This document shows positions 3,715 to 54,088 of a DNA stretch of 64,000 nucleotides, in pieces. Made by a program: the position numbers and the translations under genes. Position 1 is the first letter of the stretch; every line of letters begins with the position of its first letter. The DNA is taken from the IMG/VR virus record IMGVR_UViG_3300009500_000012. The stretch is one strand, 5' to 3'. The notes beneath the pieces are model-generated. The model had not been told where the DNA came from and searched no databases. It was given only the letters and a program-made list of their open reading frames with translations. This DNA comes from an uncultured virus (IMG/VR IMGVR_UViG_3300009500_000012). Its lineage: Duplodnaviria > Heunggongvirae > Uroviricota > Caudoviricetes.

Positions 3715-4113
3715 TCATCCATGAGAGCGATAACGCTTGGGAGTAGGAGTATTAGATACCATATGAAAATTCTTATGTTTAGCCCATTCACGTACTAGAC
3801 GTTTACCTTCTGGGTTAGAAGATTGACAACGAATAATATGGTTATCAGGCGTGAACTCGTTATGAAAAAGTTTCTCGTCAATAAAATTCAACACAGGACG
3901 AATCGTATCATCCCCGCCTAAATCATGGTCCAACCACAATTCAGAAATATTAGGCCATTGTTTCTCTATGAAATCAATAGCAGCCTCACTTGATTTAGCA
4001 TGGATGACTAACTTTCCATCATAAGAATTCTGATAGATTCTATCATCATCAATTACTAAAATAAGTTTTCGAGGCAAAATAGTATCGGCGAGAAGGTTCA
4101 TAACAAATAACAT
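3715..4113 (-). CDS. Cyclic-phosphate-processing receiver (cREC)-like protein
   Basis: LVIDDDR, LWLDHDLG and SSNPEG motifs. Confidence 0.7.
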   Translation of the reverse strand: MLFVMNLLADTILPRKLILVIDDDRIYQNSYDGKLVIHAKSSEAAIDFIEKQWPNISELWLDHDLGGDDTIRPVLNFIDEKLFHNEFTPDNHIIRCQSSNPEGKRLVREWAKHKNFHMVSNTPTPKRYRSHG

Positions 4114-9763: not shown

Positions 9764-9895
9764 AGTCATAAACTTCTTTGAAAGACTTGATTTAACTTAT
9801 GGGATATGATATAAATGCTGTGGAAGTAAACACAAACGCTTCCTTCAATTCACAAACAACCTCACTATTAAGTGAAAGGATACCAAAACAAAATC

Positions 9896-10204
9896 ATGTC
9901 TACCATCGCAGAAGTCACGAAAAAGCGCCCCGGCCGCGTTCGCACGGCCAACTCGGAACGTATGTCCGAGGCCATGTTCAAGGCGAAGAACGTCCAAGGT
10001 CTGACGCTCCAAGCCATCGCCGATAAGTACAACAAAGACAAGCGCCGCCAGGAAGCGGGCAAAACCCTCACCGCCCAAGCCGTGTATGCCCGTATCAAGG
10101 ACTTCGCAGCCCGTAACCCGGAGAAGGTTGCGGAAATCCTGGGCTCGGTCGAACCGGAGAACGTCGCCTCCGCTGAAACGACCGACGCTCTCGCCGTCGC
10201 CTAA
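9896..10204 (+). CDS. Small basic, possibly HTH DNA-binding protein; GC-rich codon usage
   Basis: GLTLQAIADKYN...AQAVYARIK; AAGGA SD. Confidence 0.65.
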   Translation: MSTIAEVTKKRPGRVRTANSERMSEAMFKAKNVQGLTLQAIADKYNKDKRRQEAGKTLTAQAVYARIKDFAARNPEKVAEILGSVEPENVASAETTDALAVA

Positions 10205-10304
10205 AAAAGTACCACGAAAAGATACAAACTAGGGTTAGTGATAAAACACTAATCCTGGTTTGTTATCTGTTGACAAATAGGTGCATGGTCGGTATACTGC
10301 CCCC

Positions 10305-10499
10305 ATGCCACTCTCTAAACGAGTCCGAGTTTTGCGTAATCTTACCCATGATAATGGATGTAAGAAGGACATACCTCGGCTAACTATATGCAAAACAGAA
10401 CCATCAAAACATCGAATAGGTAATTCTACTTGTCCGGTGTTTTGTCCACATTGCAAAAATATAATGCGTGTACCTAATAGAGCATTGAAACCAGCATAA
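10305..10499 (+). CDS. Small Cys-rich protein
   Basis: TTGACA-17-TATACT then 6 nt to ATG; CPxxCPHC. Confidence 0.55.
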   Translation: MPLSKRVRVLRNLTHDNGCKKDIPRLTICKTEPSKHRIGNSTCPVFCPHCKNIMRVPNRALKPA

Positions 10500-10500
10500 G

Positions 10501-10613
10501 AAAAAATCCTATTGGCTCATATGACTTGCGTAACGCATACCAATAGGATTTTTCCCTTGTTCGGATTATTGCTCCGAACATTGTCGCGGGCGCCAGTAGG
10601 CCATGACCCTACA
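10501..10613 (-). ncRNA. sRNA cassette 1
   Basis: TTGACA-17-TATAAT (10647-10619), hairpins, long terminator. Confidence 0.55.
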
Positions 10614-10677
10614 CCGACATTATAACATAGAACCGAAATTATGTCAAACAATATCCAATTTATAATAGATTGAATGA

Positions 10678-10772
10678 CATAAGAATAGTAGTACCCCAGT
10701 AAATTTACTACCAAGATACTACTATTACTCAGGGGCTATAATCGCCCTCCACCAGTAGTTTCTTATCCTACA
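10678..10772 (-). ncRNA. sRNA cassette 2 (paralog of cassette 1)
   Basis: TTGACA-17-TATAAT (10806-10778), same 5' GTAG..CTACTGG hairpin, terminator-like stem. Confidence 0.55.
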
Positions 10773-10835
10773 CCATGATTATAGCATAGAACCGAAATCC
10801 TGTCAAATAATACCCATTTATAATAAATAAGACTA

Positions 10836-10900
10836 AACACAATAATACCCAGAATTTCTCCTGGGTATTATTGCATCCCGAAGCCCTTTACGGCTACTCC
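10836..10900 (-). ncRNA. sRNA cassette 3
   Basis: TTGAAA-17-TATACT (10935-10907), AGCC/GGCT hairpin and terminator. Confidence 0.4.
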
Positions 10901-10915
10901 ATCTATAGTATACTC

Positions 10916-11548
10916 TTAAAAGAACATACTTTCAACAACAGCAGTTTTCCGAGTTGTGGCAATTCCGTACTTCTGAATCTTCTTCACAAGAGAACGAATT
11001 CGACTCGCCACATATCGAGGGCTTCGATGACTATGAGGATAATTTGCAGGGTCAAATAGATAATCTGCTTGATTTTTGGTAATTCCAAAAAACATTGTAG
11101 CGGCATCAAAGTTTACATAACCTTGAAATTCTACATCAATAGGAGTAACACCTGTAATGCATTTAAAACGAAGTTCTTCTTCATCATACTTATATGCAGA
11201 ACTCCACTTCAATCCTTTAGAAATAAACCAAGGATGAAGGGCAGCAGTTCCTAATGCACATGCACTACTTCCACACTTTAGTTCTTTAACTTTTTTGTTT
11301 GCAATAGCCTCAACAGGAACATAACCAAAACTGCTTAAATCAAAATTTTTAACAGGAATAGAAAGTTTTTTACGTTCCTTAGAAAATTCTTCAAGAACTT
11401 CTGCAAGTTTTAAAAGACGTTGCGGTTTAAAAGGAGTAGGAGCATAATCATTCTTTGTATAAATAAAAGAATGGTTCGCATTACTTGAATAGTAAGTGGT
11501 AGTCTTTTCGCAAGGAATAACTTCGTCTTCAGTAGTAGTAGTCATCAT
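10916..11548 (-). CDS. Conserved phage hypothetical (CGSSACALG motif)
   Basis: ORF; TTGCAA-17-TATACT places the start at 11548. Confidence 0.7.
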   Translation of the reverse strand: MMTTTTEDEVIPCEKTTTYYSSNANHSFIYTKNDYAPTPFKPQRLLKLAEVLEEFSKERKKLSIPVKNFDLSSFGYVPVEAIANKKVKELKCGSSACALGTAALHPWFISKGLKWSSAYKYDEEELRFKCITGVTPIDVEFQGYVNFDAATMFFGITKNQADYLFDPANYPHSHRSPRYVASRIRSLVKKIQKYGIATTRKTAVVESMFF

Positions 11549-11600
11549 ACAAAGAAGTATACCAATGCACTTTAGTTCTTGCAAGTAATACTTAAAACAC

Positions 11601-11920
11601 AAAAACCCTAGTATTTCTACCAGAGTTTTTGTGCAGATGGTGGGACTTTACATACCCACACGTTCGGAGTGAAGAGTTGCCTTTGAAGTACAAATTTCCC
11701 TACTTGCTCTGCAACGAAGCTGCCGCCTCATCAACATCAAATTGTCACCAATCTGATTGACATTCCTACTTAGTATGCCTACTAAGACCCACTATACCCC
11801 TCAAGCACTTGCCCGTCAAAGTATAGTCCAGGGAATTCCGAACTTTACAGGACCTTACTCCCGGCCTTCACCATAGAGTTTTTCGGTCACATCCTAGTTT
11901 ACTTGCCGTCGCTTTCAACC
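11601..11920 (-). ncRNA. Putative ~320-nt structured ncRNA
   Basis: Perfect TTGACA-17-TATAAT (11954-11926), no ORF in the track, many helices, terminator 11601-11630. Confidence 0.7.
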
Positions 11921-12062
11921 TTTTTATTATAGGACACAAACACAGTTCTGTCAACACCAAATCAAAAGATTTTTACCCACAGACTTCTACACACTATCCA
12001 CAAGGAAAAAGTTTAAAATTCTCCTGCTTGCAATTTCTCTTCCCATATCCTATAATGAATGA

Positions 12063-12275
12063 GTTAGCGATAACGGCTTCGTCCGAACGAAGCATCGCTG
12101 AAAGACCTCGATATCTGCGAGTTTACGCTCAATAGTGATTATCTGGTGCTTTCAGGTAAAGAGTGAATTAATCCCTTTAAGGTCGGACTTCATGGGACGG
12201 TTGGTGTTCTTGACCGATAACTCTGGCTCTAGGTTTATGTAACAAAGCTCCGCAAGGAGATACCTACCCAGGTTC
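12063..12275 (+). ncRNA. Putative ~210-nt structured ncRNA
   Basis: TTGCAA-17-TATAAT (12028-12056), nested helices, GCAA tetraloop. Confidence 0.6.
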
Positions 12276-12335
12276 AAAAAAAGAATTAGGTTTTGAGGGT
12301 TCCCTAGCGTAAACAAAATCCTCTTCAATAATCTT

Positions 12336-12482
12336 TAAAAGAAATGCTTGATGGAGCATCATAAATCCACCCAAGGGTTCGACGGGTACTTTACAGAGTT
12401 CCCACTCCAGTAGCTGTAACTACTGCCTTGCTTTAAGCCCTGCGCCACCACACAGAGTAGGTTAGCGGGGCTTCTTGATTTT
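12336..12482 (-). ncRNA. Putative ~140-nt structured ncRNA
   Basis: TAGAAT -10, helices AAGCCC/GGGCTT and CAGTAG/CTACTG, hairpin plus U-tract at the end. Confidence 0.45.
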
Positions 12483-12581
12483 TGTTTCAATTCTATAATA
12501 AATAGAGTATCTTTAAAGAGATACTCTAAAAAATCCTTACTTGACAAAACATACTCAAAACACTATACTAAAAATGGATAT

Positions 12582-12642
12582 GGGACCGCAGCCGATGCGG
12601 CATGACAGGTAAATGTGGGTTCAACTCCCATCGGTTCCACCA
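12582..12642 (+). ncRNA. 61-nt tRNA-like RNA without anticodon arm (tmRNA TLD-like, Ala identity)
   Basis: GGGACCG/CGGTTCC stem, T-arm GTGGG-TTCAACT-CCCAT, ACCA end, own TTGACA-17-TATACT promoter. Confidence 0.7.
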
Positions 12643-12830
12643 TTTGACAGAATCCTTTCTGTATGATATAGTCTAAATGTCTCCTAGTTATGCCAACTCA
12701 AAATTGGTCCCTTGAATGGGATATATAGAAAATAACTAGGTATTCTGGTCCCGGATGATTGTGGGTTACCCATAGGGATGATGAGGAACAACTCGGATGC
12801 ATACGAGCCTCATCCTAAAATTTTAAAAAT

Positions 12831-12944
12831 TTGATAGCTGATGGCAAGCATCGAAGCTGCGACTGTCCTTAATCGGGTAGCAGGTGGAAATCGGCGTAGG
12901 CGGTTCGCTACCGCTGTGAAGGTTCGACTCCTTCCAGTTATCAA
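12831..12944 (+). ncRNA. tRNA-like multi-arm RNA without CCA
   Basis: 10-bp closing stem, canonical T-arm GAAGG-TTCGACT-CCTTC, three further hairpins. Confidence 0.55.
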
Positions 12945-13005
12945 TTAAAACTTCCGGTATGGCTGAATAGCGCCGATTTCTAGAATGCAAGGCGACCATA
13001 CTTCC

Positions 13006-13034
13006 GAAACCCTCATCTTTTGATGGGGGTTTTC
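13006..13034 (+). terminator. Intrinsic terminator closing the RNA operon
   Basis: CCCTCATC/GATGGGGG stem plus T-run. Confidence 0.7.
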
Positions 13035-13078
13035 GTGCTATATTTGATTTAACTTCAACTTCTTGCTATAATATCAAT

Positions 13079-13282
13079 ATGAATAACAACGAAGAACCGA
13101 ATGATTTTGTCAAACCTCTTACTAAAGAACAACTCGCTTCACAAGAATGTTCTTGCGGATGTGGACAAATTGCACTACTTACCCATAATACTATCCCAGG
13201 CTATTTTGCAGACATGGACTGTATCCGTAAGATTATGCCTAATGCAAAATGGACAGATACATGGGTCATAAATGAACTATAA
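13079..13282 (+). CDS. Small Cys-containing protein
   Basis: TATAAT 6 nt before ATG; CSCGCG. Confidence 0.6.
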   Translation: MNNNEEPNDFVKPLTKEQLASQECSCGCGQIALLTHNTIPGYFADMDCIRKIMPNAKWTDTWVINEL

Positions 13283-28344: not shown

Positions 28345-28701
28345 ATTTAATTTAAATTATTTATTTGATGTTTTAATTCTTGTAAATCTTTATTGTCTAA
28401 TATAATGAATGGCACTTCAATGTTTTCATCGTTTTGAGTAATTTCACATGATAACACGGCCCATTCTATTTCCGACATAGTATAAGCACGATGCATCTGA
28501 ATTGCTATCTTTCCATATTCGTCTCTGAATATAAGATAGAATGGCTGTTTCTGTAAAGTTTTCTTTTTACTCATTTTTTACAGTTACAACTCCCTAATAA
28601 AGCATAACATATTCTACATTTAGGAAAACGAACGCTCATATAACTTATTTACCTCTTGACCATTAGATTATATAACCATTCGAGTATTGCGATTTCTATT
28701 C

Positions 28702-39649: not shown

Positions 39650-40048
39650 ATGATAAAAGATAAAGATATAAGTGCTAATGAATATCAACGCATTTCTTTA
39701 TCTAAAGCAGGAAGAGAAGAATCTACTCCTAAAGAAAGACTAGCTTTATCATCACTTGGTTTGGCTGGCGAAACAACTGAATTTTTTGAATTAGTTGAAT
39801 CTTCTTTAGGTATGATGAAAGCCGCTGGTAAAATTTGTGACGATACAAAGAAACACGTTTACCATGACCATCAATTAGATAAAGAAAAAGCAATAAAAGA
39901 ATTAGGAGATATTGCTTGGTACTTACAACATGCTTGCACCGCACTTGGTGTATCTTTTGCAGAAGTATTATTGGCTAATATAGAAAAATTAGCAAAAAGA
40001 TATCCCCGAGGGTTTAATGCCGAAGACTCTATTAACCGTAAAGATTAA
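39650..40048 (+). CDS. mazG: MazG-like NTP pyrophosphohydrolase
   Basis: LGLAGE...KELGDIAWY...NIEKLAKRYP. Confidence 0.9.
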   Translation: MIKDKDISANEYQRISLSKAGREESTPKERLALSSLGLAGETTEFFELVESSLGMMKAAGKICDDTKKHVYHDHQLDKEKAIKELGDIAWYLQHACTALGVSFAEVLLANIEKLAKRYPRGFNAEDSINRKD

Positions 40049-40437
40049 TAGAGTTTTAAATCAAACGTAAGTTCGTCAATATCTTCGGCCCAATGAGGTC
40101 CAATTGCAACAACAGTATGAGTTGGAATCCCATTGAATTCTGTAAGACCTGAATCAGTAATTAAAACTGCATTAAGGTCTTTTTTCTTTGCTGCATCATA
40201 AATAGCAAGGAGAGCCGCTTCACTATCTACAGAAAGAGTGATTTTTTTAAATAGACCCTCATCCCATGCTTTAAATGCTTGATAATGTCTATCTTCAGCA
40301 TTCCAACCATTGTAATATTTAAAAACCACTTGTTTATATGCAGCCAAAGAAGCATGAGCGCCTTGGGCAATCTCTTTACCTCGACGCATTTTGAGGTCCT
40401 TGCGGACAATAATTACTTGTTTAGCATTTTCGTTCAT
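40045..40437 (-). CDS. pth2: Peptidyl-tRNA hydrolase Pth2
   Basis: KQVIIVRKDLKMRRGKEIAQGAHAS...DSGLTE...T..AIGP. Confidence 0.92.
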   Translation of the reverse strand: MNENAKQVIIVRKDLKMRRGKEIAQGAHASLAAYKQVVFKYYNGWNAEDRHYQAFKAWDEGLFKKITLSVDSEAALLAIYDAAKKKDLNAVLITDSGLTEFNGIPTHTVVAIGPHWAEDIDELTFDLKLY

Positions 40438-40470
40438 ACGTCCCAATCTTAACATCATTATGTAGTGTTG

Positions 40471-47087: not shown

Positions 47088-48164
47088 TTAATATGGGTCG
47101 CGATTTGGTCCAGGATTACCTATTTTATTGACATTTTCATCAGAAGGATACCATCCGTTTTTCCAAAAAACTCTATCCTTATTTACATGGCCTTTACGAA
47201 CATATTTTGCAAGGCTAAACCTAAATTGTCCATAATCAAAAGAATCTGCAACTCGAACAACATAACCTTCATGTCTATCTTGAAAAGGCTTAAAAGATTC
47301 TTTAACTTTTTCTTCATCCCAAATATCATCATAGATAACAGGAACAGTTACTAAATCAAGTAACTCTGCAAATTCAACTGTATCATCCCAAGAAAGTGCT
47401 TGGTTCTTATCATTCCAAATTGAAAACAAATAGAAAAAAGATTCTAAATTAGAATATCGAATGGAATGATAAGCATAAAGATTCTCACCACATAATCTCA
47501 TCCCAGATGGAATATCATAAGCGATTCTACCATGAATATTTCGCACATGAGATTGACTAGGGTGTGAATCTCCATCTAAACTACGAGCATGAATTGCATT
47601 GTTATACATCGTAGTATTTTCACCATCTAATTTCAAAGTGACAATTACACGACGACCTACAAAATGGTCACAATTTTTTAATGCACGGTCATCTTTTGTC
47701 ATTCCAGGCGACCAAGGTAAATGAAAACTACGAGGATATTTAATTTTTGTTTCATACAGATGAAGGACCTTTCCTTCTTTTAAAATTCTCTGTACAGATT
47801 CATCGTAAAAAAGTTCGCCTTTTGAACGAGTACCATTACCATTAATAATATCACCCCATTTTGTATAAACGTTATCATCATACAAATGAGAAGGCAAAAC
47901 AATATCTTTTATTCCAATTTTTTCTCTTAAATCTTCACAAGAAACAAGAGTTTGTTCTGCCAATCTATGACAAGCATTACATACAGAAGCGCCATTATCA
48001 ATGAAATAACCACCAAATTCTTCAGGTTGATTAAATAATCGCCTTTCAATTATATGATGGACCTCGGTAGCAGGTTCTTTTTTACAGTTAACACAAATAC
48101 CGCCATCCCTTTCGAGACAGCGTTCTCTGAATTCAGTACGTGTTAACAGTTGTTTATTCTTCAT
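47088..48164 (-). CDS. HNH domain-RNA ligase fusion
   Basis: N-terminal CxxC/HHII/CxxCH; KYPRSFHLPWS, KLDGEN, EGYVVR, AKYVR. Confidence 0.85.
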   Translation of the reverse strand: MKNKQLLTRTEFRERCLERDGGICVNCKKEPATEVHHIIERRLFNQPEEFGGYFIDNGASVCNACHRLAEQTLVSCEDLREKIGIKDIVLPSHLYDDNVYTKWGDIINGNGTRSKGELFYDESVQRILKEGKVLHLYETKIKYPRSFHLPWSPGMTKDDRALKNCDHFVGRRVIVTLKLDGENTTMYNNAIHARSLDGDSHPSQSHVRNIHGRIAYDIPSGMRLCGENLYAYHSIRYSNLESFFYLFSIWNDKNQALSWDDTVEFAELLDLVTVPVIYDDIWDEEKVKESFKPFQDRHEGYVVRVADSFDYGQFRFSLAKYVRKGHVNKDRVFWKNGWYPSDENVNKIGNPGPNRDPY

Positions 48165-50831: not shown

Positions 50832-52100
50832 ATGACACTCAGTTTTGTGAAAGCCATCGCTGCGGATATTCAAGCAGCCGGTGGTCATGCCTATTATGTT
50901 GGCGGATATGTTCGTGACAACCTTCTCGGTATTCCTTCTAAGGATATTGATATAGAAGTTTATGGACTTTCTTCAAGCATTCTTTTTCAACTTTTAGAAC
51001 GATATGGTTCACCTAAATATGTAGGTGAGTCTTTCGGTGTTATTAAACTGCGCTTGCCTAATGGTCTTGAACTTGATATTTCTTTACCTCGTAAAGAGAA
51101 GAAAAATGGTCGAGGTTACACAGGATTTGACGTTGAACCAGACCCTTTCATGCCAAAATCAGAAGCATGTATGCGGCGCGATTTTACCATCAATGCTATG
51201 ATGAAAGATATTTTATCTGCAGAAATCATTGATTTTTTTGATGGCAGGAAACACCTTCTTGAGACGAAAACGCTGTCTGCGGTTTCGGAACGCTTTGCAG
51301 AAGACCCTCTTCGTGTATTGCGGGCTATGCAATTTGCTGCGCGTTTTAATCTTAAAATGGACGAAAAAACTGTTAACATGTGTTCATCTTTACTTTCTGA
51401 ATTTGATACTATCAGTAAAGAAAGATTATTCATTGAATTTCAAAAATTGATTCTTAAAGGTGCCCCAAATATCCGAAAAGGGTTTGAAACTTTAATTGCG
51501 ACAGATTGGATTAAGGCTTTTCCTAACTTTAATCAATTTGTTCTTAATAAAGGTAACAAATTTTGGGACAAGGTTGAAAAAAGTACAGAATCAATGTATA
51601 TGTTTGAAGATGAAAACCTTGAACGCAAAGATGAAGATTTAATTGTTATTTTCTTTGCTACTTTGTTTTCAAATGAAGAAAACATTGATGTTAAAACTAC
51701 TTTAGAAGAATTAGGAGCGTATCCTGATATCGTCAAGCGGGTTACTCATCTTGCAAAATTAGATGCAAAGCCTTTTAACGAAGAAGATGAATCTTCCGTA
51801 AGAATTTTTGCTTCTGAAATTCATCCTGCTAATATTAATGAATGGTATGCAATCCATTTTAATGATAAAGGAAATGAACATCTTTCAGATTATATTCGTA
51901 AAATTGCTAAACAGAGAGGCATTTTATTCAAAAGAGAATCACCAATTTTAAATGGTGATGACCTGATTGCATTTGGTATTCCACCGGGCAAAAAACTTGG
52001 TAATTTTTTAAAAATTGCTTATATTGAACAACTTAACGATAGATTTAATAATCGTTCGGATGCTCATGAATGGTTGAAAAATAATACTATCTTGGAATAG
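50832..52100 (+). CDS. cca: CCA-adding tRNA nucleotidyltransferase
   Basis: VGGYVRD..DIDIE, RRDFTINAM, EDPLRVLRA..FAARF. Confidence 0.92.
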   Translation: MTLSFVKAIAADIQAAGGHAYYVGGYVRDNLLGIPSKDIDIEVYGLSSSILFQLLERYGSPKYVGESFGVIKLRLPNGLELDISLPRKEKKNGRGYTGFDVEPDPFMPKSEACMRRDFTINAMMKDILSAEIIDFFDGRKHLLETKTLSAVSERFAEDPLRVLRAMQFAARFNLKMDEKTVNMCSSLLSEFDTISKERLFIEFQKLILKGAPNIRKGFETLIATDWIKAFPNFNQFVLNKGNKFWDKVEKSTESMYMFEDENLERKDEDLIVIFFATLFSNEENIDVKTTLEELGAYPDIVKRVTHLAKLDAKPFNEEDESSVRIFASEIHPANINEWYAIHFNDKGNEHLSDYIRKIAKQRGILFKRESPILNGDDLIAFGIPPGKKLGNFLKIAYIEQLNDRFNNRSDAHEWLKNNTILE

Positions 52101-53467: not shown

Positions 53468-54088
53468 ATGAAAAATAATAACAAAATAGTAGTCACAAGG
53501 CATTTAGACCTTATTAATCTCTTATCAGATATGGGTTTAGTTGACGATTCAACCCCTGTGCTACTACATGCAAATGCAGAAGATATTACAGGTAAAGATA
53601 TTATTGGAGTTGCTCCACCTAAACTTGCTGTATATGCAAATTCTGTAACTGAGGTTCCTCTTTCAATTCCTAAAGATTTAAAAGATATGTGGGATGGAGA
53701 ACTTCCGTTAGAAGAACTAAAAAAATGTGTTATTGGAGAACCTGTAACTTACAAAGTTGAAAAACTTAATACACGCGAAGATTTTTCAGAAGCAATTATC
53801 ACAACGAGAGCGGCGACTTTTCTTCAATATCTAGTACGAGAAAATATTATTGAACGTCGAAGCAAACAGCATCTTGATGCTGTAGATAGACAGTTTACCT
53901 TAAAAGAAGAAATAGAAGGAAAGCCAGTTTTAGGTCATTTGCCATATCATTTGGCTCAATATGCACTTGATGTAACTTCTTTGGTTAATTTGTATCCATA
54001 CGAATTACGTGCTAAGATGCATACATATGAACTTACAAAACAATATACACAAGGATTGTTTACATATAAAGTAAAACAGATGGACTAA
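53468..54088 (+). CDS. Tandem Csx16 (VVA1548)-like domain protein
   Basis: Two repeats of (V/I)xTR(H/A)...I.GK..(I/L)G..P..LA...TYKV. Confidence 0.65.
   Translation: MKNNNKIVVTRHLDLINLLSDMGLVDDSTPVLLHANAEDITGKDIIGVAPPKLAVYANSVTEVPLSIPKDLKDMWDGELPLEELKKCVIGEPVTYKVEKLNTREDFSEAIITTRAATFLQYLVRENIIERRSKQHLDAVDRQFTLKEEIEGKPVLGHLPYHLAQYALDVTSLVNLYPYELRAKMHTYELTKQYTQGLFTYKVKQMD

What the first reader, a model, noticed from the sequence alone, without database searches (positions are those of the whole stretch)
10500..13040. Island of about ten structured non-coding RNA elements
Seen: about 2.5 kb with only one credible protein gene, but seven near-consensus sigma70 promoters with 17-bp spacers (-35 boxes at 10647, 10806, 10935, 11954, 12028, 12541, 12644). 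Each leads into GC-enriched, helix-forming sequence, and most units end in terminators. Inference: a dedicated phage RNA repertoire, perhaps decoys, antitoxin-like RNAs or scaffolds.
Basis: partly seen in the sequence, partly recalled or inferred. Interest (0 to 1): 0.78.

Follow-up and report, generated by a model that had tools for sequence, protein, structure and literature searches.

The report
Phage island of non-coding RNA genes
A gene-poor stretch of a large uncultured phage carries strong promoters that make several non-coding RNAs, including one abundant, previously undescribed 300-base RNA and two transfer-RNA look-alikes, but what they do is still unknown.

Summary
All seven promoters sit at the stated coordinates with 17-bp spacers, but four are on the minus strand and three on the plus strand. 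Window 11603-13078 is the longest ORF-free stretch of the window, and its GC is 44-46% against 34%.

I count nine promoter- or terminator-bounded pieces, B to J. They are not equally credible.
- Unit E (about 325 nt, minus strand) is real. Three metatranscriptomes from three studies each hold one 100%-identical contig covering only E. E folds better than shuffles on the sense strand only. It is the best-conserved part in a DNA relative and matches no Rfam family.
- Unit G (61 nt) is an anticodon-less tRNA-Ala/tmRNA-like minihelix with G3:U70, A73 and CCA. It resembles the TLD-only tmRNA of phage DS6A but fails that family's specific features.
- Unit I is a weak tRNA-like RNA.
- B and C are paralogous promoter-hairpin-terminator units.
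- F and H are weakly supported. D and J are probably only terminators.

No divergent homologues were found, so covariation could not be tested. Function is inferred, not shown: mimicry of the translation apparatus or decoys.

Verdict: a new variant of a known kind, with moderate interest (0.55).

The parts
10497..10612 (-). Unit B: a roughly 115-nt small RNA. It has a 5' hairpin (GUAGG..CCUAC), a second hairpin and a 19-bp terminator hairpin shared with the convergent gene 10305-10499.
   Evidence: A 12/12 promoter lies at 10647-10619(-). Fold z is -5.4. The unit is kept in the DNA relative X3 at about 90% identity. No RNA contig covers it.
10619..10647 (-). Promoter of unit B (TTGACA-17-TATAAT).
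   Evidence: It is part of a 68-nt duplication shared with the promoter of unit C (family D1, 78% identity).
10660..10771 (-). Unit C: a roughly 110-nt small RNA. It is a paralogue of B in its promoter and its first ~20 nt, has a long 19-bp hairpin, and lacks a clear U-tract.
   Evidence: A 12/12 promoter lies at 10806-10778(-). Fold z is -3.8. In relative X3 the stretch 10687-10936 is replaced by 86 other bases (table 5), so C is strain-variable.
10833..10900 (-). Unit D: a 20-bp hairpin plus U-tract. It is most likely just the terminator of the protein gene 10916-11548, not an RNA gene of its own.
   Evidence: Terminator 10878-10835(-). Fold z is -7.1. Its promoter at 10935 matches only 10/12 and lies inside the ORF's 3' end. 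The unit is absent from relative X3.
10916..11548 (-). The one protein gene of the island (210 aa from the ATG at 11548). It appears leaderless, and its function is unknown.
   Evidence: Promoter 11584-11556(-) with 9/12 matches plus an extended TG. One relative at 71% identity. No Pfam match; phrog_889 at E 3e-4. The structure model was unusable, pLDDT 36.9.
11595..11920 (-). Unit E: a roughly 325-nt multi-helix RNA ending in an intrinsic terminator (stem about 11632-11597, followed by a U-tract).
   Evidence: A 12/12 promoter lies at 11954-11926(-). One 100%-identical contig appears in each of three RNA runs from three studies, covering only 11622-11908. Fold z is -5.5; the core alone gives -3.0 on the sense strand and -1.0 on the antisense strand. 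Identity in relative X3 is 96.7-98.6%, against 85-91% for the flanks. No Rfam hit at E <= 10.
12028..12056 (+). Promoter of unit F. It lies back-to-back with the promoter of unit E.
   Evidence: 10/12 matches, 17-bp spacer.
12063..12495 (+). Unit F: a roughly 430-nt ORF-free unit running from promoter to terminator. It has a strong 5' hairpin (12064-12101) and a terminator at about 12445-12490. The evidence that it is a structured RNA is weak.
   Evidence: Fold z is -1.8 for the whole unit and +0.3 to -2.0 for its parts. Relative X3 keeps 11978-12238 at about 91% identity, but its sequence diverges after 12238 (table 7). No Rfam hit.
12541..12569 (+). Promoter of unit G.
   Evidence: 11/12 matches. 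The transcription start is expected near 12576, about 6 nt before the mature 5' end of G.
12582..12642 (+). Unit G: a 61-nt tRNA-Ala/tmRNA-like minihelix. It has a 7-bp acceptor stem with G3:U70, A73 and an encoded CCA, a 4-bp D-like hairpin, a 13-nt linker and a T arm. It has no anticodon arm.
   Evidence: Rfam tmRNA model ends: 26.5 bits, E 4.4e-8, below the gathering score of 47. The last 28 nt are identical to the ssrA 3' end of Acholeplasmataceae and to a phage tRNA-Ala. Model R1 of TLD-only mini-tmRNAs scores it 34.3 bits, no better than ordinary tRNAs.
12644..12672 (+). Promoter of unit H. Its -35 box starts 2 nt after the CCA of G.
   Evidence: 11/12 matches, with TG.
12679..12830 (+). 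Unit H: a roughly 150-nt RNA or leader. It has a 9-bp closing stem around an anticodon-arm-like hairpin (7-nt loop CUCAAAA), followed by two further hairpins. Support is weak.
   Evidence: Fold z is -1.8. Kept in relative X3 at about 94% identity. No Rfam hit. At a lowered threshold, ARAGORN calls a tRNA-like element on the opposite strand.
12834..12943 (+). Unit I: a roughly 110-nt tRNA-like RNA. It has an 8-bp acceptor stem (GAUAGCUG/CAUUUAUC-type pairing 12834-41 with 12935-42), a canonical T arm, a 5-bp/7-nt hairpin (loop UUCGCUA) and extra hairpins. It has no encoded CCA.
   Evidence: ARAGORN calls a 'tRNA-Ala(cgc)' at 12870-12942 with a mismatched acceptor stem. Rfam tRNA-Sec: 21.4 bits, E 0.085-0.62, below the gathering score. 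Fold z is -1.5. The pairing is read from the sequence.
12945..13035 (+). Unit J: a 3' trailer hairpin plus the terminator of the G-H-I transcript.
   Evidence: Fold z is -2.7. The terminator hairpin lies at about 13003-13030 and is followed by a U-tract.

Best explanation
This is a real, early-type RNA module of an uncultured myovirus of at least 172 kb.

**Layout.** Host sigma70-type RNA polymerase starts at two back-to-back consensus promoters (11954-, 12028+) and at five more promoters. All of them lead into ORF-free, GC-enriched DNA.
- Leftward: unit E, a roughly 325-nt multi-helix RNA closed by an intrinsic terminator. E accumulates to high levels. One leaderless protein gene follows, and then two paralogous ~110-nt small RNAs (C, B).
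- Rightward: unit F (~430 nt, poorly supported), then a G-H-I-J transcript. The usual tRNA-processing enzymes would release G and I from it. G is a 61-nt anticodon-less tRNA-Ala/tmRNA-like minihelix with CCA, and I is a ~110-nt tRNA-like RNA.

**Shown.** The promoters, the lack of ORFs, the RNA-level accumulation of E, the stronger folding of E's sense strand, the tRNA-like architecture of G, and the identity of G's 3' end to a bacterial ssrA end.

**Inferred.** G carries the alanine identity marks (G3:U70, A73) and would be charged by AlaRS. It would then act as a mimic or decoy of tRNA/tmRNA acceptor ends. One route is titrating SmpB, as shown for a TLD-only molecule. Others are binding EF-Tu or soaking up enzymes that attack tRNA 3' ends. 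This fits the phage's own CCA-adding enzyme, two RNA ligases and Pth2. E is most likely a stable protein-binding scaffold or sponge RNA; its target is unknown.
For: - **Promoters.** All seven are confirmed: 26 sites against 11.4 +/- 3.2 in shuffles. Six of the 19 sites with at least 11/12 matches in the 64-kb window fall within 2.4 kb.
- **ORF-free stretch.** It is the longest of the window at 1,476 nt; the next is 553 nt.
- **Unit E as RNA.** In 3 of 3 RNA runs laid (three studies) there is a single 100%-identical contig of 246-274 nt, lying wholly inside 11622-11908. Nothing else of the 3.2 kb is covered. Five RNA runs listed hold 6-8% of the words, which is the size of E.
- **Unit E fold and conservation.** The core gives z -3.0 on the sense strand (0 of 200 shuffles fold as well) and -1.0 on the antisense strand (28 of 200). 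In the DNA relative X3, E is 96.7-98.6% identical against 85-91% for the neighbouring coding and non-coding DNA.
- **Not leaderless ORFs.** The ATGs after the G and H promoters sit at the 5th nt after the -10 box. The phage's leaderless genes have it at the 7th nt, or the 8th in one case.
- **Unit G.** It has a 7/7 acceptor pairing with G3:U70, A73 and CCA. The tmRNA model ends match at E 4.4e-8. Its 3' 28 nt equal an ssrA end.
- **Precedent.** A TLD-only RNA exists in phage DS6A, and a TLD-only molecule inhibits tmRNA (passages read in PMC4131195 and PMC11915505).
- **Gene context.** The phage carries a CCA-adding enzyme, RNA ligase-HNH, a second RNA ligase, Pth2 and a cREC_REC domain.
Against: - No divergent homologue of any unit was found, so no covariation supports any fold.
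- The RNA evidence is from assembled contigs. It gives no strand, no ends and no level, and it covers only E.
- F, G, H and I do not fold better than shuffles (z -1.0 to -1.8).
- G scores no better on a model of TLD-only mini-tmRNAs (34.3 bits) than ordinary tRNAs of the same data set (20-35 bits). It lacks the GG..UCGAC loop and helix 2. SmpB titration is therefore an analogy, not a finding.
- An insertion of AT after 11680 in the relative falls in a predicted helix of E.
- Unit C is missing from the relative, so it is dispensable.
Confidence: 0.6

Rival explanations
1. The stretch is a regulatory junction, not a set of trans-acting RNAs. Divergent early promoters are followed by terminated leaders, so E would gate the 210-aa gene and F would gate the tRNA-like cluster. 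The transcripts would be by-products of attenuation or insulation, and E would be merely a stable terminated leader.
For: E ends in a terminator directly upstream of the gene 11548-10916, and the E-gene arrangement is kept in the relative. F ends in a terminator directly upstream of the G promoter. F folds no better than shuffles.
Against: The downstream gene has its own promoter placed for a leaderless start, and G and H also have their own 11/12 promoters. E is more conserved than the gene it would regulate. No riboswitch, T-box or leader family matches at E <= 10. E accumulates on its own in three RNA libraries.
Confidence: 0.2
2. G, H and I are decayed tRNA genes or recombination scars. 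In particular, G would be an attP-like copy of the host ssrA 3' end used for integration, not an expressed RNA gene.
For: The 28 nt at 12616-12643 are 100% identical to the ssrA 3' end of three Acholeplasmataceae genomes. Identity blocks of this kind are typical of phage attachment sites in tRNA/tmRNA genes (established knowledge). Another mini element (L112) sits between two coding regions like an att core. H and I are not canonical tRNAs.
Against: - No integrase or recombinase was found: 0 of 99 ORFs of at least 170 aa tested, and no PF00589 or PF00239 match in the 130-kb record. The genome is incomplete, so this is not a full exclusion.
- G has a complementary 5' acceptor strand (7/7) that an att core does not need, and an 11/12 promoter whose start lies about 6 nt upstream.
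- The gene content is that of a large virulent-type myovirus.
- H and I are kept at 91-95% identity in the relative.
Confidence: 0.08
3. The island hides small protein genes, either leaderless micro-ORFs or short ORFs inside E, F or I, and the 'RNAs' are their messengers.
For: This phage uses leaderless starts widely. ATGs follow the G and H promoters, each opening a 12-codon frame (read). A 35-aa ORF at 12841-12948 overlaps I, and small zinc-ribbon-like genes flank the island at 10305-10499 and 13079-13282.
Against: The two ATGs sit at the 5th nt after the -10 box, not at the 7th or 8th as in the eight leaderless genes of the window. No ORF of at least 65 aa exists in 11603-13078. The ORFs inside E are at most 43 aa and mostly antisense. 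The 12-codon frame after the G promoter runs through the acceptor stem of a tRNA-like fold.
Confidence: 0.07

Closest known systems
TLD-only ('CDS-less') tmRNA of mycobacteriophage DS6A, and the mini-tmRNAs I found in IMG/VR phage contigs
   Same: All are short phage-encoded RNAs of about 60-83 nt, made of a 7-bp acceptor stem with G3:U70, a T arm and a tRNA-like 3' end, with no tag reading frame. G hits the two ends of Rfam's tmRNA model in the same way as DS6A (26.5 against 43.2 bits). Its 3' 28 nt equal a bacterial ssrA end. A TLD-only molecule inhibits tmRNA, perhaps by titrating SmpB (passages read in PMC4131195 and PMC11915505, citing Mao et al. 2009, which I could not read).
   Different: G lacks the GG..UCGAC D-loop analogue, the covarying helix 2 and the GGAC junction. 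These features define the 11 aligned mini-tmRNAs and DS6A. G has instead a 4-bp D-like hairpin and a 13-nt linker, as does L071 from a 395-kb phage contig. On model R1 it scores like an ordinary tRNA.
Phage T4 tRNA region with species I and II stable RNAs
   Same: Both are phage clusters of small stable RNAs of unknown function lying beside tRNA-type genes and made early or in the middle of infection. In T4 a ~1.75-kb primary transcript is the precursor of eight tRNAs and the species I and II RNAs (passage read in PMC2330249).
   Different: Here nearly every unit has its own consensus promoter, the units lie on both strands, the cluster holds no canonical tRNA (those lie at 4.9-6.2 kb and 57.5-61.3 kb), and E is larger (~325 nt). 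There is no sequence similarity to any phage record.
Large phage-associated structured RNAs (GOLLD, ROOL) and other abundant metatranscriptome RNAs
   Same: Like them, E is a long, multi-helix, GC-enriched non-coding RNA carried by a phage near tRNA-type genes, and it is abundant in environmental RNA. This comparison is recalled from my own knowledge. A GOLLD fragment beside tRNAs turned up by chance in L045.
   Different: E is about 325 nt, compared with about 600-800 nt for those RNAs. It does not match GOLLD, ROOL or any of the 4,227 Rfam models at E <= 10.
tRNA-Ala acceptor minihelix / mitochondrial and plastid CDS-less tmRNA
   Same: All combine acceptor and T-arm helices carrying G3:U70 and A73, the marks AlaRS reads. 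That rule is recalled from established knowledge. CDS-less tmRNAs of ~65 nt in plastids and mitochondria are described in PMC11915505 (passage read).
   Different: G is phage-encoded, driven by its own strong promoter, and has its CCA encoded. Charging was not tested.

Membership tests
tmRNA, TLD-only form (Rfam RF00023 ends; DS6A type) | 7-bp acceptor stem with G3:U70, discriminator A73 and a CCA end | tested here: met
   GGGACCG pairs with CGGUUCC, followed by ACCA at 12582-12642.
tmRNA, TLD-only form (Rfam RF00023 ends; DS6A type) | T arm with a GGUUCRAnUCC loop directly abutting the acceptor 3' strand | tested here: met
   GUGGGUUCAACUCCCAU. It is identical to the ssrA of Acholeplasma oculi from UGGG to CCAU.
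tmRNA, TLD-only form (Rfam RF00023 ends; DS6A type) | D-loop analogue GG..UCGAC on the 5' side, helix 2 and a GGAC junction before the T arm | tested here: not met
   These are present in 11 of 11 aligned IMG/VR mini-tmRNAs, with 6 covarying pairs, and in DS6A. In G the helix-2 columns are marked as non-pairs and the loop motif is missing (alignment).
tmRNA, TLD-only form (Rfam RF00023 ends; DS6A type) | Scores above ordinary tRNAs on a family model and above Rfam's gathering score | tested here: not met
   On R1, DS6A scores 51 bits and G 34.3 bits, while ordinary tRNAs of the window and of L155 score 17.7-34.9 bits. On Rfam, G scores 26.5 bits against a gathering score of 47.
tmRNA, TLD-only form (Rfam RF00023 ends; DS6A type) | Alanylation by AlaRS and binding of SmpB | not testable with these tools
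   This needs in-vitro charging and binding assays.
Canonical tRNA (Rfam RF00005) | Cloverleaf with D arm, anticodon arm (5 bp, 7-nt loop), T arm and acceptor stem, scoring above the gathering score | tested here: not met
   No RF00005 hit at gathering in 10500-13040. G has no anticodon arm. ARAGORN calls I a tRNA-Ala(cgc) only with a mismatched acceptor stem and a 4-bp T stem. The best Rfam hit for I is tRNA-Sec at 21.4 bits against 47.
Any described RNA family (Rfam 15) for units E and F | Match to a covariance model | tested here: not met
   No hit on E or F at E <= 1 or at E <= 10 when only 911 nt were searched. The three hits at E 6-9 lie outside E and F or at their edges and are noise.
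Phage attachment site (attP) in ssrA | Identity block to the host tRNA/tmRNA 3' end, together with an integrase gene | tested here: inconclusive
   The identity block is present: 28 nt at 100%. No integrase or recombinase was found in 99 ORFs or in the 130-kb record. However, the genome is incomplete.
T4-type tRNA / stable-RNA cluster | Small stable RNAs co-transcribed with tRNAs and released by tRNA-processing enzymes | not testable with these tools
   G has no terminator and is followed at once by the H promoter, and G-J share one terminator. Processing itself needs RNA end mapping.

The most novel reading that the evidence does not exclude
Unit E would be the founding member of a new class of abundant, phage-encoded structured RNA, either a protein-binding scaffold or a ribozyme-like RNA. 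It would work together with a set of anticodon-less tRNA look-alikes (G, I, perhaps H). The purpose would be to protect or re-tool the host translation apparatus against defences that attack tRNA ends or stall ribosomes. On this reading the island is an RNA-based counter-defence cassette, and its promoter-plus-RNA units come and go between strains.
Probability: 0.2. Interest if true: 0.8.

Novelty: new variant of a known kind. Interest (0 to 1): 0.55.

Why it matters
Phage-encoded non-coding RNAs beyond tRNAs are few, and most have no known role. Unit E is an undescribed ~325-nt RNA. It is the only part of this phage region that three independent environmental RNA data sets assembled, so it is probably one of the phage's most abundant products and a tractable target for function studies.

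The tRNA-like units add to evidence that phages carry cut-down tRNA/tmRNA mimics. My scans show that TLD-only mini-tmRNAs are common in phage contigs, not a curiosity of one mycobacteriophage. They also show a second, anticodon-less tRNA-Ala-like design, seen in unit G and in L071. If these RNAs are decoys for tRNA-directed defences or for ribosome rescue, that would be an RNA-level counter-defence strategy.

Tried and rejected
**Homologue hunts that gave nothing usable**
- blastn of the island against 50,697 phage records: no match.
- Protein-anchored searches of IMG/VR with the 210-aa gene, alone and as a 2-sequence alignment: only the same contig.
- The same alignment against GTDB genomes: none.
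- A 17-mer from E in IMG/VR: the same contig, plus a chance hit inside a coding region (L005).
- A 20-mer from E in metagenome contigs: one identical contig, L007. The same 20-mer in GTDB genomes: none.
- The island against 3, 301 and 401 genomes around Acholeplasma: only the 28-nt ssrA end.
- This scan's own notes searched by sequence: nothing.
- The 210-aa protein has one relative, P0002 at 71% identity on a 1,653-bp contig. I could not fetch its DNA.

**RNA cover**
- F, G-J, B and C had no RNA contig in the three runs laid. This is not evidence of absence, because tRNA-sized RNAs are usually lost from such libraries and contigs drop rare molecules.

**Other attempts dropped**
- ARAGORN at a lowered threshold called a permuted tmRNA at 12755-12942 with the tag DGKHRSCDCP. 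I rejected it: the tag is atypical, and Rfam's permuted model gave no hit.
- The structure model of the 210-aa protein had pLDDT 36.9 and was unusable. The protein atlas gave only unnamed viral clusters.
- My complementarity scan for sRNA targets returned only the units' own antisense strands through a flaw in the script, and I dropped it.
- The phage tRNA cluster shows no close similarity to Acholeplasmataceae tRNAs.
- A 25-mer for a tRNA-Ala without CCA has no match in GTDB.
- No tandem or ToxI-like repeats in the island.


Full report
**Where the window lies.** Window bases 1-21643 are identical to the end of a 130,281-bp IMG/VR record (handle G001). The rest of the window runs on beyond that record, so the phage genome is at least 172.6 kb. 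It is a myovirus-type phage. Pfam finds a tail sheath, a Mu-like portal, and a 1,212-aa tail protein with SLT and M23 peptidoglycan-cutting domains. It also carries RNA and translation repair genes:
- an RNA ligase fused to HNH (47088-48164)
- a DNA ligase
- a CCA-adding enzyme (50832-52100)
- a second RNA ligase
- a peptidyl-tRNA hydrolase Pth2 (40045-40458)
- a cyclic-phosphate-processing receiver domain (3715-4113)

It has at least eight canonical tRNAs in the window, all outside the finding. No phage in the INPHARED collection resembles the island at the DNA level. The best protein match to the CCA enzyme is 32% identical.

**Checking the observation.**
Those at 10647, 10806, 10935 and 11954 are on the minus strand; those at 12028, 12541 and 12644 are on the plus strand.
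- The region has 26 promoter-like sites against 11.4 +/- 3.2 in shuffles. In my scan of the whole window, 6 of the 19 sites with at least 11/12 matches lie within 10270-12672.
- Window 11603-13078 is the longest stretch of the window without an ORF of at least 65 aa on either strand: 1,476 nt, against 553 nt for the next longest.
- GC is 44-46% in units E, F and G-J, against 34.1% for the window.
- The genetic code looks standard, because the rest of the window is densely coding under table 11.

The layout is two divergent arms leaving the back-to-back promoters at 11954(-) and 12028(+).

**The units.** I name them B to J.

Minus strand:
- E: 11920 to about 11595.
- The one protein gene: 11548-10916, with its own promoter.
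- D: 10900-10833.
- C: 10771 to about 10660.
- B: 10612 to about 10497.

Plus strand:
- F: 12063 to about 12495.
- G: 12582-12642.
- H: 12679 to about 12830.
- I: 12834-12943.
- J: 12945-13035.

Fold z-scores against dinucleotide shuffles:

| Unit | z |
|---|---|
| B | -5.4 |
| C | -3.8 |
| D | -7.1 |
| E | -5.5 |
| F | -1.8 |
| G | -1.0 |
| H | -1.8 |
| I | -1.5 |
| J | -2.7 |

In B, C and D the score comes largely from 19-20-bp terminator-type hairpins. D is best read as the terminator of the protein gene, because its promoter matches only 10/12 and lies inside the ORF. J is the trailer and terminator of the G-H-I transcript. B and C share a 68-nt duplication (78% identity) that covers the promoter and the first ~20 transcribed bases, including a small 5' hairpin.

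**Are they hidden leaderless genes?** This phage often places an ATG exactly 7 nt after the -10 box, and 8 nt in one case. Eight promoters show this, including 10270, which drives the small zinc-ribbon-like gene 10305-10499. The ATGs after the G and H promoters are at the 5th nt and open only 12-codon frames. The E, F, B and C promoters have no ATG at the start point. Hidden small genes are therefore unlikely, though not excluded.

**Unit E is a real and abundant RNA.** Eleven public runs hold part of the region. Five of them are metatranscriptomes from four studies, each holding 6-8% of the sampled words. I laid three of them, from wetland, moss and plant samples in three studies. Each gave exactly one contig (274, 246 and 254 nt), 100% identical, with its whole length inside 11622-11908, and nothing else in the 3.2 kb. 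DNA contamination would cover the flanks as well.

The contigs fit a transcript from the 12/12 promoter (start near 11920) to the intrinsic terminator (stem about 11632-11597 plus a U-tract). Contigs cannot show strand or ends. Without the terminator, the core folds with z -3.0 on the minus strand (0 of 200 shuffles as good) but only -1.0 on the plus strand (28 of 200).

In a diverged DNA relative (run X3), E is 96.7-98.6% identical, while the neighbouring protein gene is 85-90% and the other non-coding parts are 90-95% (table 8). No Rfam model matches E or F, even at E <= 10 with only 911 nt searched.

Against the predicted fold, the relative has an AT insertion after 11680, inside one predicted helix.

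**Unit G.** G reads GGGACCG-CA-GCCG AUG CGGC-13 nt-GUGGG UUCAACU CCCAU-CGGUUCC-A-CCA. It has a perfect 7-bp acceptor stem with G3:U70, A73, an encoded CCA, a T arm and a 4-bp D-like hairpin, but no anticodon arm. Rfam's tmRNA model aligns its two ends at 26.5 bits (E 4.4e-8), below the gathering score.

Two papers report a precedent. [quoted passage not shown] I located the DS6A element at 28478-28560 (43.2 bits).

Two capped IMG/VR scans for short acceptor/T-arm RNAs gave these results:
- In the GGGA-start scan, 2 of 122 matches had a 7/7 acceptor stem. One was a true mini element (L071, from a 395-kb contig) and the other was part of an ordinary tRNA-Ala.
- In the GGGG-start scan, 20 of 156 matches had a 7/7 acceptor stem. 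Two of the 20 were parts of ordinary tRNA-Ala genes, and most of the rest were classical TLD-only mini-tmRNAs.

Eleven of the classical ones align with an invariant G3:U70, a GG..UCGAC loop and a helix 2 in which all six pairs show compensatory changes.

A covariance model built from those eleven scores DS6A at 51 bits and G at 34.3 bits. That is no better than ordinary tRNAs in the same search (17.7-34.9 bits), and G's helix-2 columns do not pair. G is therefore not a classical TLD. It shares a different, anticodon-less tRNA-Ala-like design with L071: acceptor stem, 2 nt, a 4-bp hairpin, a 13-nt linker and a T arm.

**G's 3' end and the attP rival.** The last 25 nt of G occur exactly in only three of the GTDB species genomes. 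All three are Acholeplasmataceae, and in each the match is the 3' end of ssrA. The identity spans 28 nt. An unrelated viral contig has an ordinary tRNA-Ala with the same 3' end.

A block of this kind could be an attachment site. Against that:
- No integrase or recombinase was found in 99 ORFs of at least 170 aa or in the 130-kb record.
- G has the complementary 5' strand that an att core does not need.
- An 11/12 promoter is placed about 6 nt upstream of G.

The host link is only a lead. The phage's tRNAs are not close to Acholeplasmataceae tRNAs, and its SLT/M23 tail protein argues for a walled host.

**Units H, I and F.**
- I has an 8-bp acceptor stem, a canonical T arm, a 5-bp/7-nt-loop hairpin and extra hairpins, but no CCA. 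ARAGORN calls a poor tRNA-Ala(cgc), and Rfam gives a sub-threshold tRNA-Sec hit.
- H has a closing stem around an anticodon-arm-like hairpin but has no database support.
- F runs from a promoter to a terminator but folds no better than shuffles. Its 3' half is replaced in the relative.
- G has no terminator and abuts the H promoter, so G-H-I-J probably form one precursor that the usual tRNA-processing enzymes would cut. This is inference.

**Mechanism.**
- Shown: a promoter-dense, ORF-free module; accumulation of E; the tRNA-like build of G and, more weakly, of I.
- Inferred for G: it carries the alanine identity marks and would be charged and handled like a tRNA acceptor end. It could act as a mimic or decoy for SmpB, for EF-Tu, or for enzymes that damage tRNA 3' ends. 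The phage's CCA-adding enzyme, RNA ligases and Pth2 point to the same arena.
- Inferred for E: it is most likely a stable protein-binding scaffold or sponge.

I put 0.6 on 'a genuine set of phage non-coding RNA genes acting on the translation or defence interface'. Within that, I am much less sure of any named target.

**Comparison with what is known, and novelty.** The closest analogues are:
- the T4 tRNA region with its species I and II RNAs (passage read in PMC2330249)
- the DS6A-type TLD-only tmRNA
- large phage-borne RNAs such as GOLLD (recalled; tested negative by Rfam)

The island differs from these in giving nearly every unit its own consensus promoter, in lying on both strands, in holding no canonical tRNA, and in E having no family. 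I rate it a new variant of a known kind, with interest 0.55. The main limit is that every homologue I could reach was identical, so no fold is backed by covariation.

Noticed in passing
window 1827, 3366, 5347, 10270, 17690, 30760, 36716, 50076 (promoter -35 positions): At eight near-consensus promoters an ATG lies exactly 7 nt (8 nt in one case) after the -10 box. Many early genes of this phage therefore appear to be leaderless mRNAs.
   Followed up: partly
window 12616-12643; L139 601-628, L138, L140: The last 28 nt of unit G are 100% identical to the 3' end of the tmRNA gene of Acholeplasma oculi and two Acholeplasmataceae MAGs. These are the only exact hits for its last 25 nt among the GTDB species genomes. 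That hints at the host lineage. However, the phage tail protein carries SLT and M23 peptidoglycan-cutting domains (L129:408-4046), which does not fit a wall-less host.
   Followed up: partly
IMG/VR loci L160, L164, L170, L192, L203, L221, L222, L233, L244, L251, L256 (each about 151-217): TLD-only mini-tmRNAs of 60-67 nt are common in phage contigs. They have an acceptor stem with G3:U70, a GG..UCGAC loop, a short covarying helix 2, a T arm and CCA. In a capped scan, 20 of 156 pattern matches had a perfect acceptor stem. The 11 that I aligned show compensatory changes in all six helix-2 pairs.
   Followed up: partly
L071 401-464 (395-kb IMG/VR contig): A second anticodon-less tRNA-Ala-like minihelix has the same build as unit G: a 7-bp acceptor stem with G3:U70, 2 nt, a 4-bp hairpin, a 13-nt linker, a T arm and CCA. 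It lies just downstream of a tRNA.
   Followed up: partly
G001:C1:103078-103195 (L134 3078-3195, minus strand), outside the window: The same phage carries a 118-nt tRNA-like gene with an encoded CCA and a 40-nt insertion that extends the anticodon arm. ARAGORN calls it tRNA-Thr(tgt) with an intron, and Rfam tRNA scores it 44.9 bits.
   Followed up: partly
window 9872-10204 (+): This 110-aa ORF has 59-61% GC in a 34% GC phage, so it is probably a recent foreign acquisition. It has no Pfam or PHROG match.
   Followed up: no
window 10687-10936: In the diverged relative (run X3), unit C and hairpin D are replaced by 86 unrelated bases, and a separate X3 contig carries only the duplicated promoter segment 10650-10685. 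Promoter-plus-small-RNA cassettes therefore seem to be gained and lost between strains (tables 5 and 7).
   Followed up: no
window 3715-4113, 40045-40458, 47088-48164, 50832-52100, 53468-54088; L132 11970-13106: The phage carries a group of RNA-repair and translation-related genes: a cyclic-phosphate-processing receiver domain, Pth2, RNA ligase-HNH, a CCA-adding enzyme, a second RNA ligase, and a protein with a Cas_VVA1548 domain.
   Followed up: no
L045 1-314: A GOLLD RNA fragment (90 bits, cut by the contig end) lies directly upstream of two tRNA genes in an unrelated viral contig.
   Followed up: no
L155 3450-6800: An unrelated 47.5-kb viral contig has a dense array of tRNAs. Among them are several short (53-63 nt) hits to the mini-TLD model, which may be further cut-down tRNA-like genes.
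   Followed up: no
   Followed up: no
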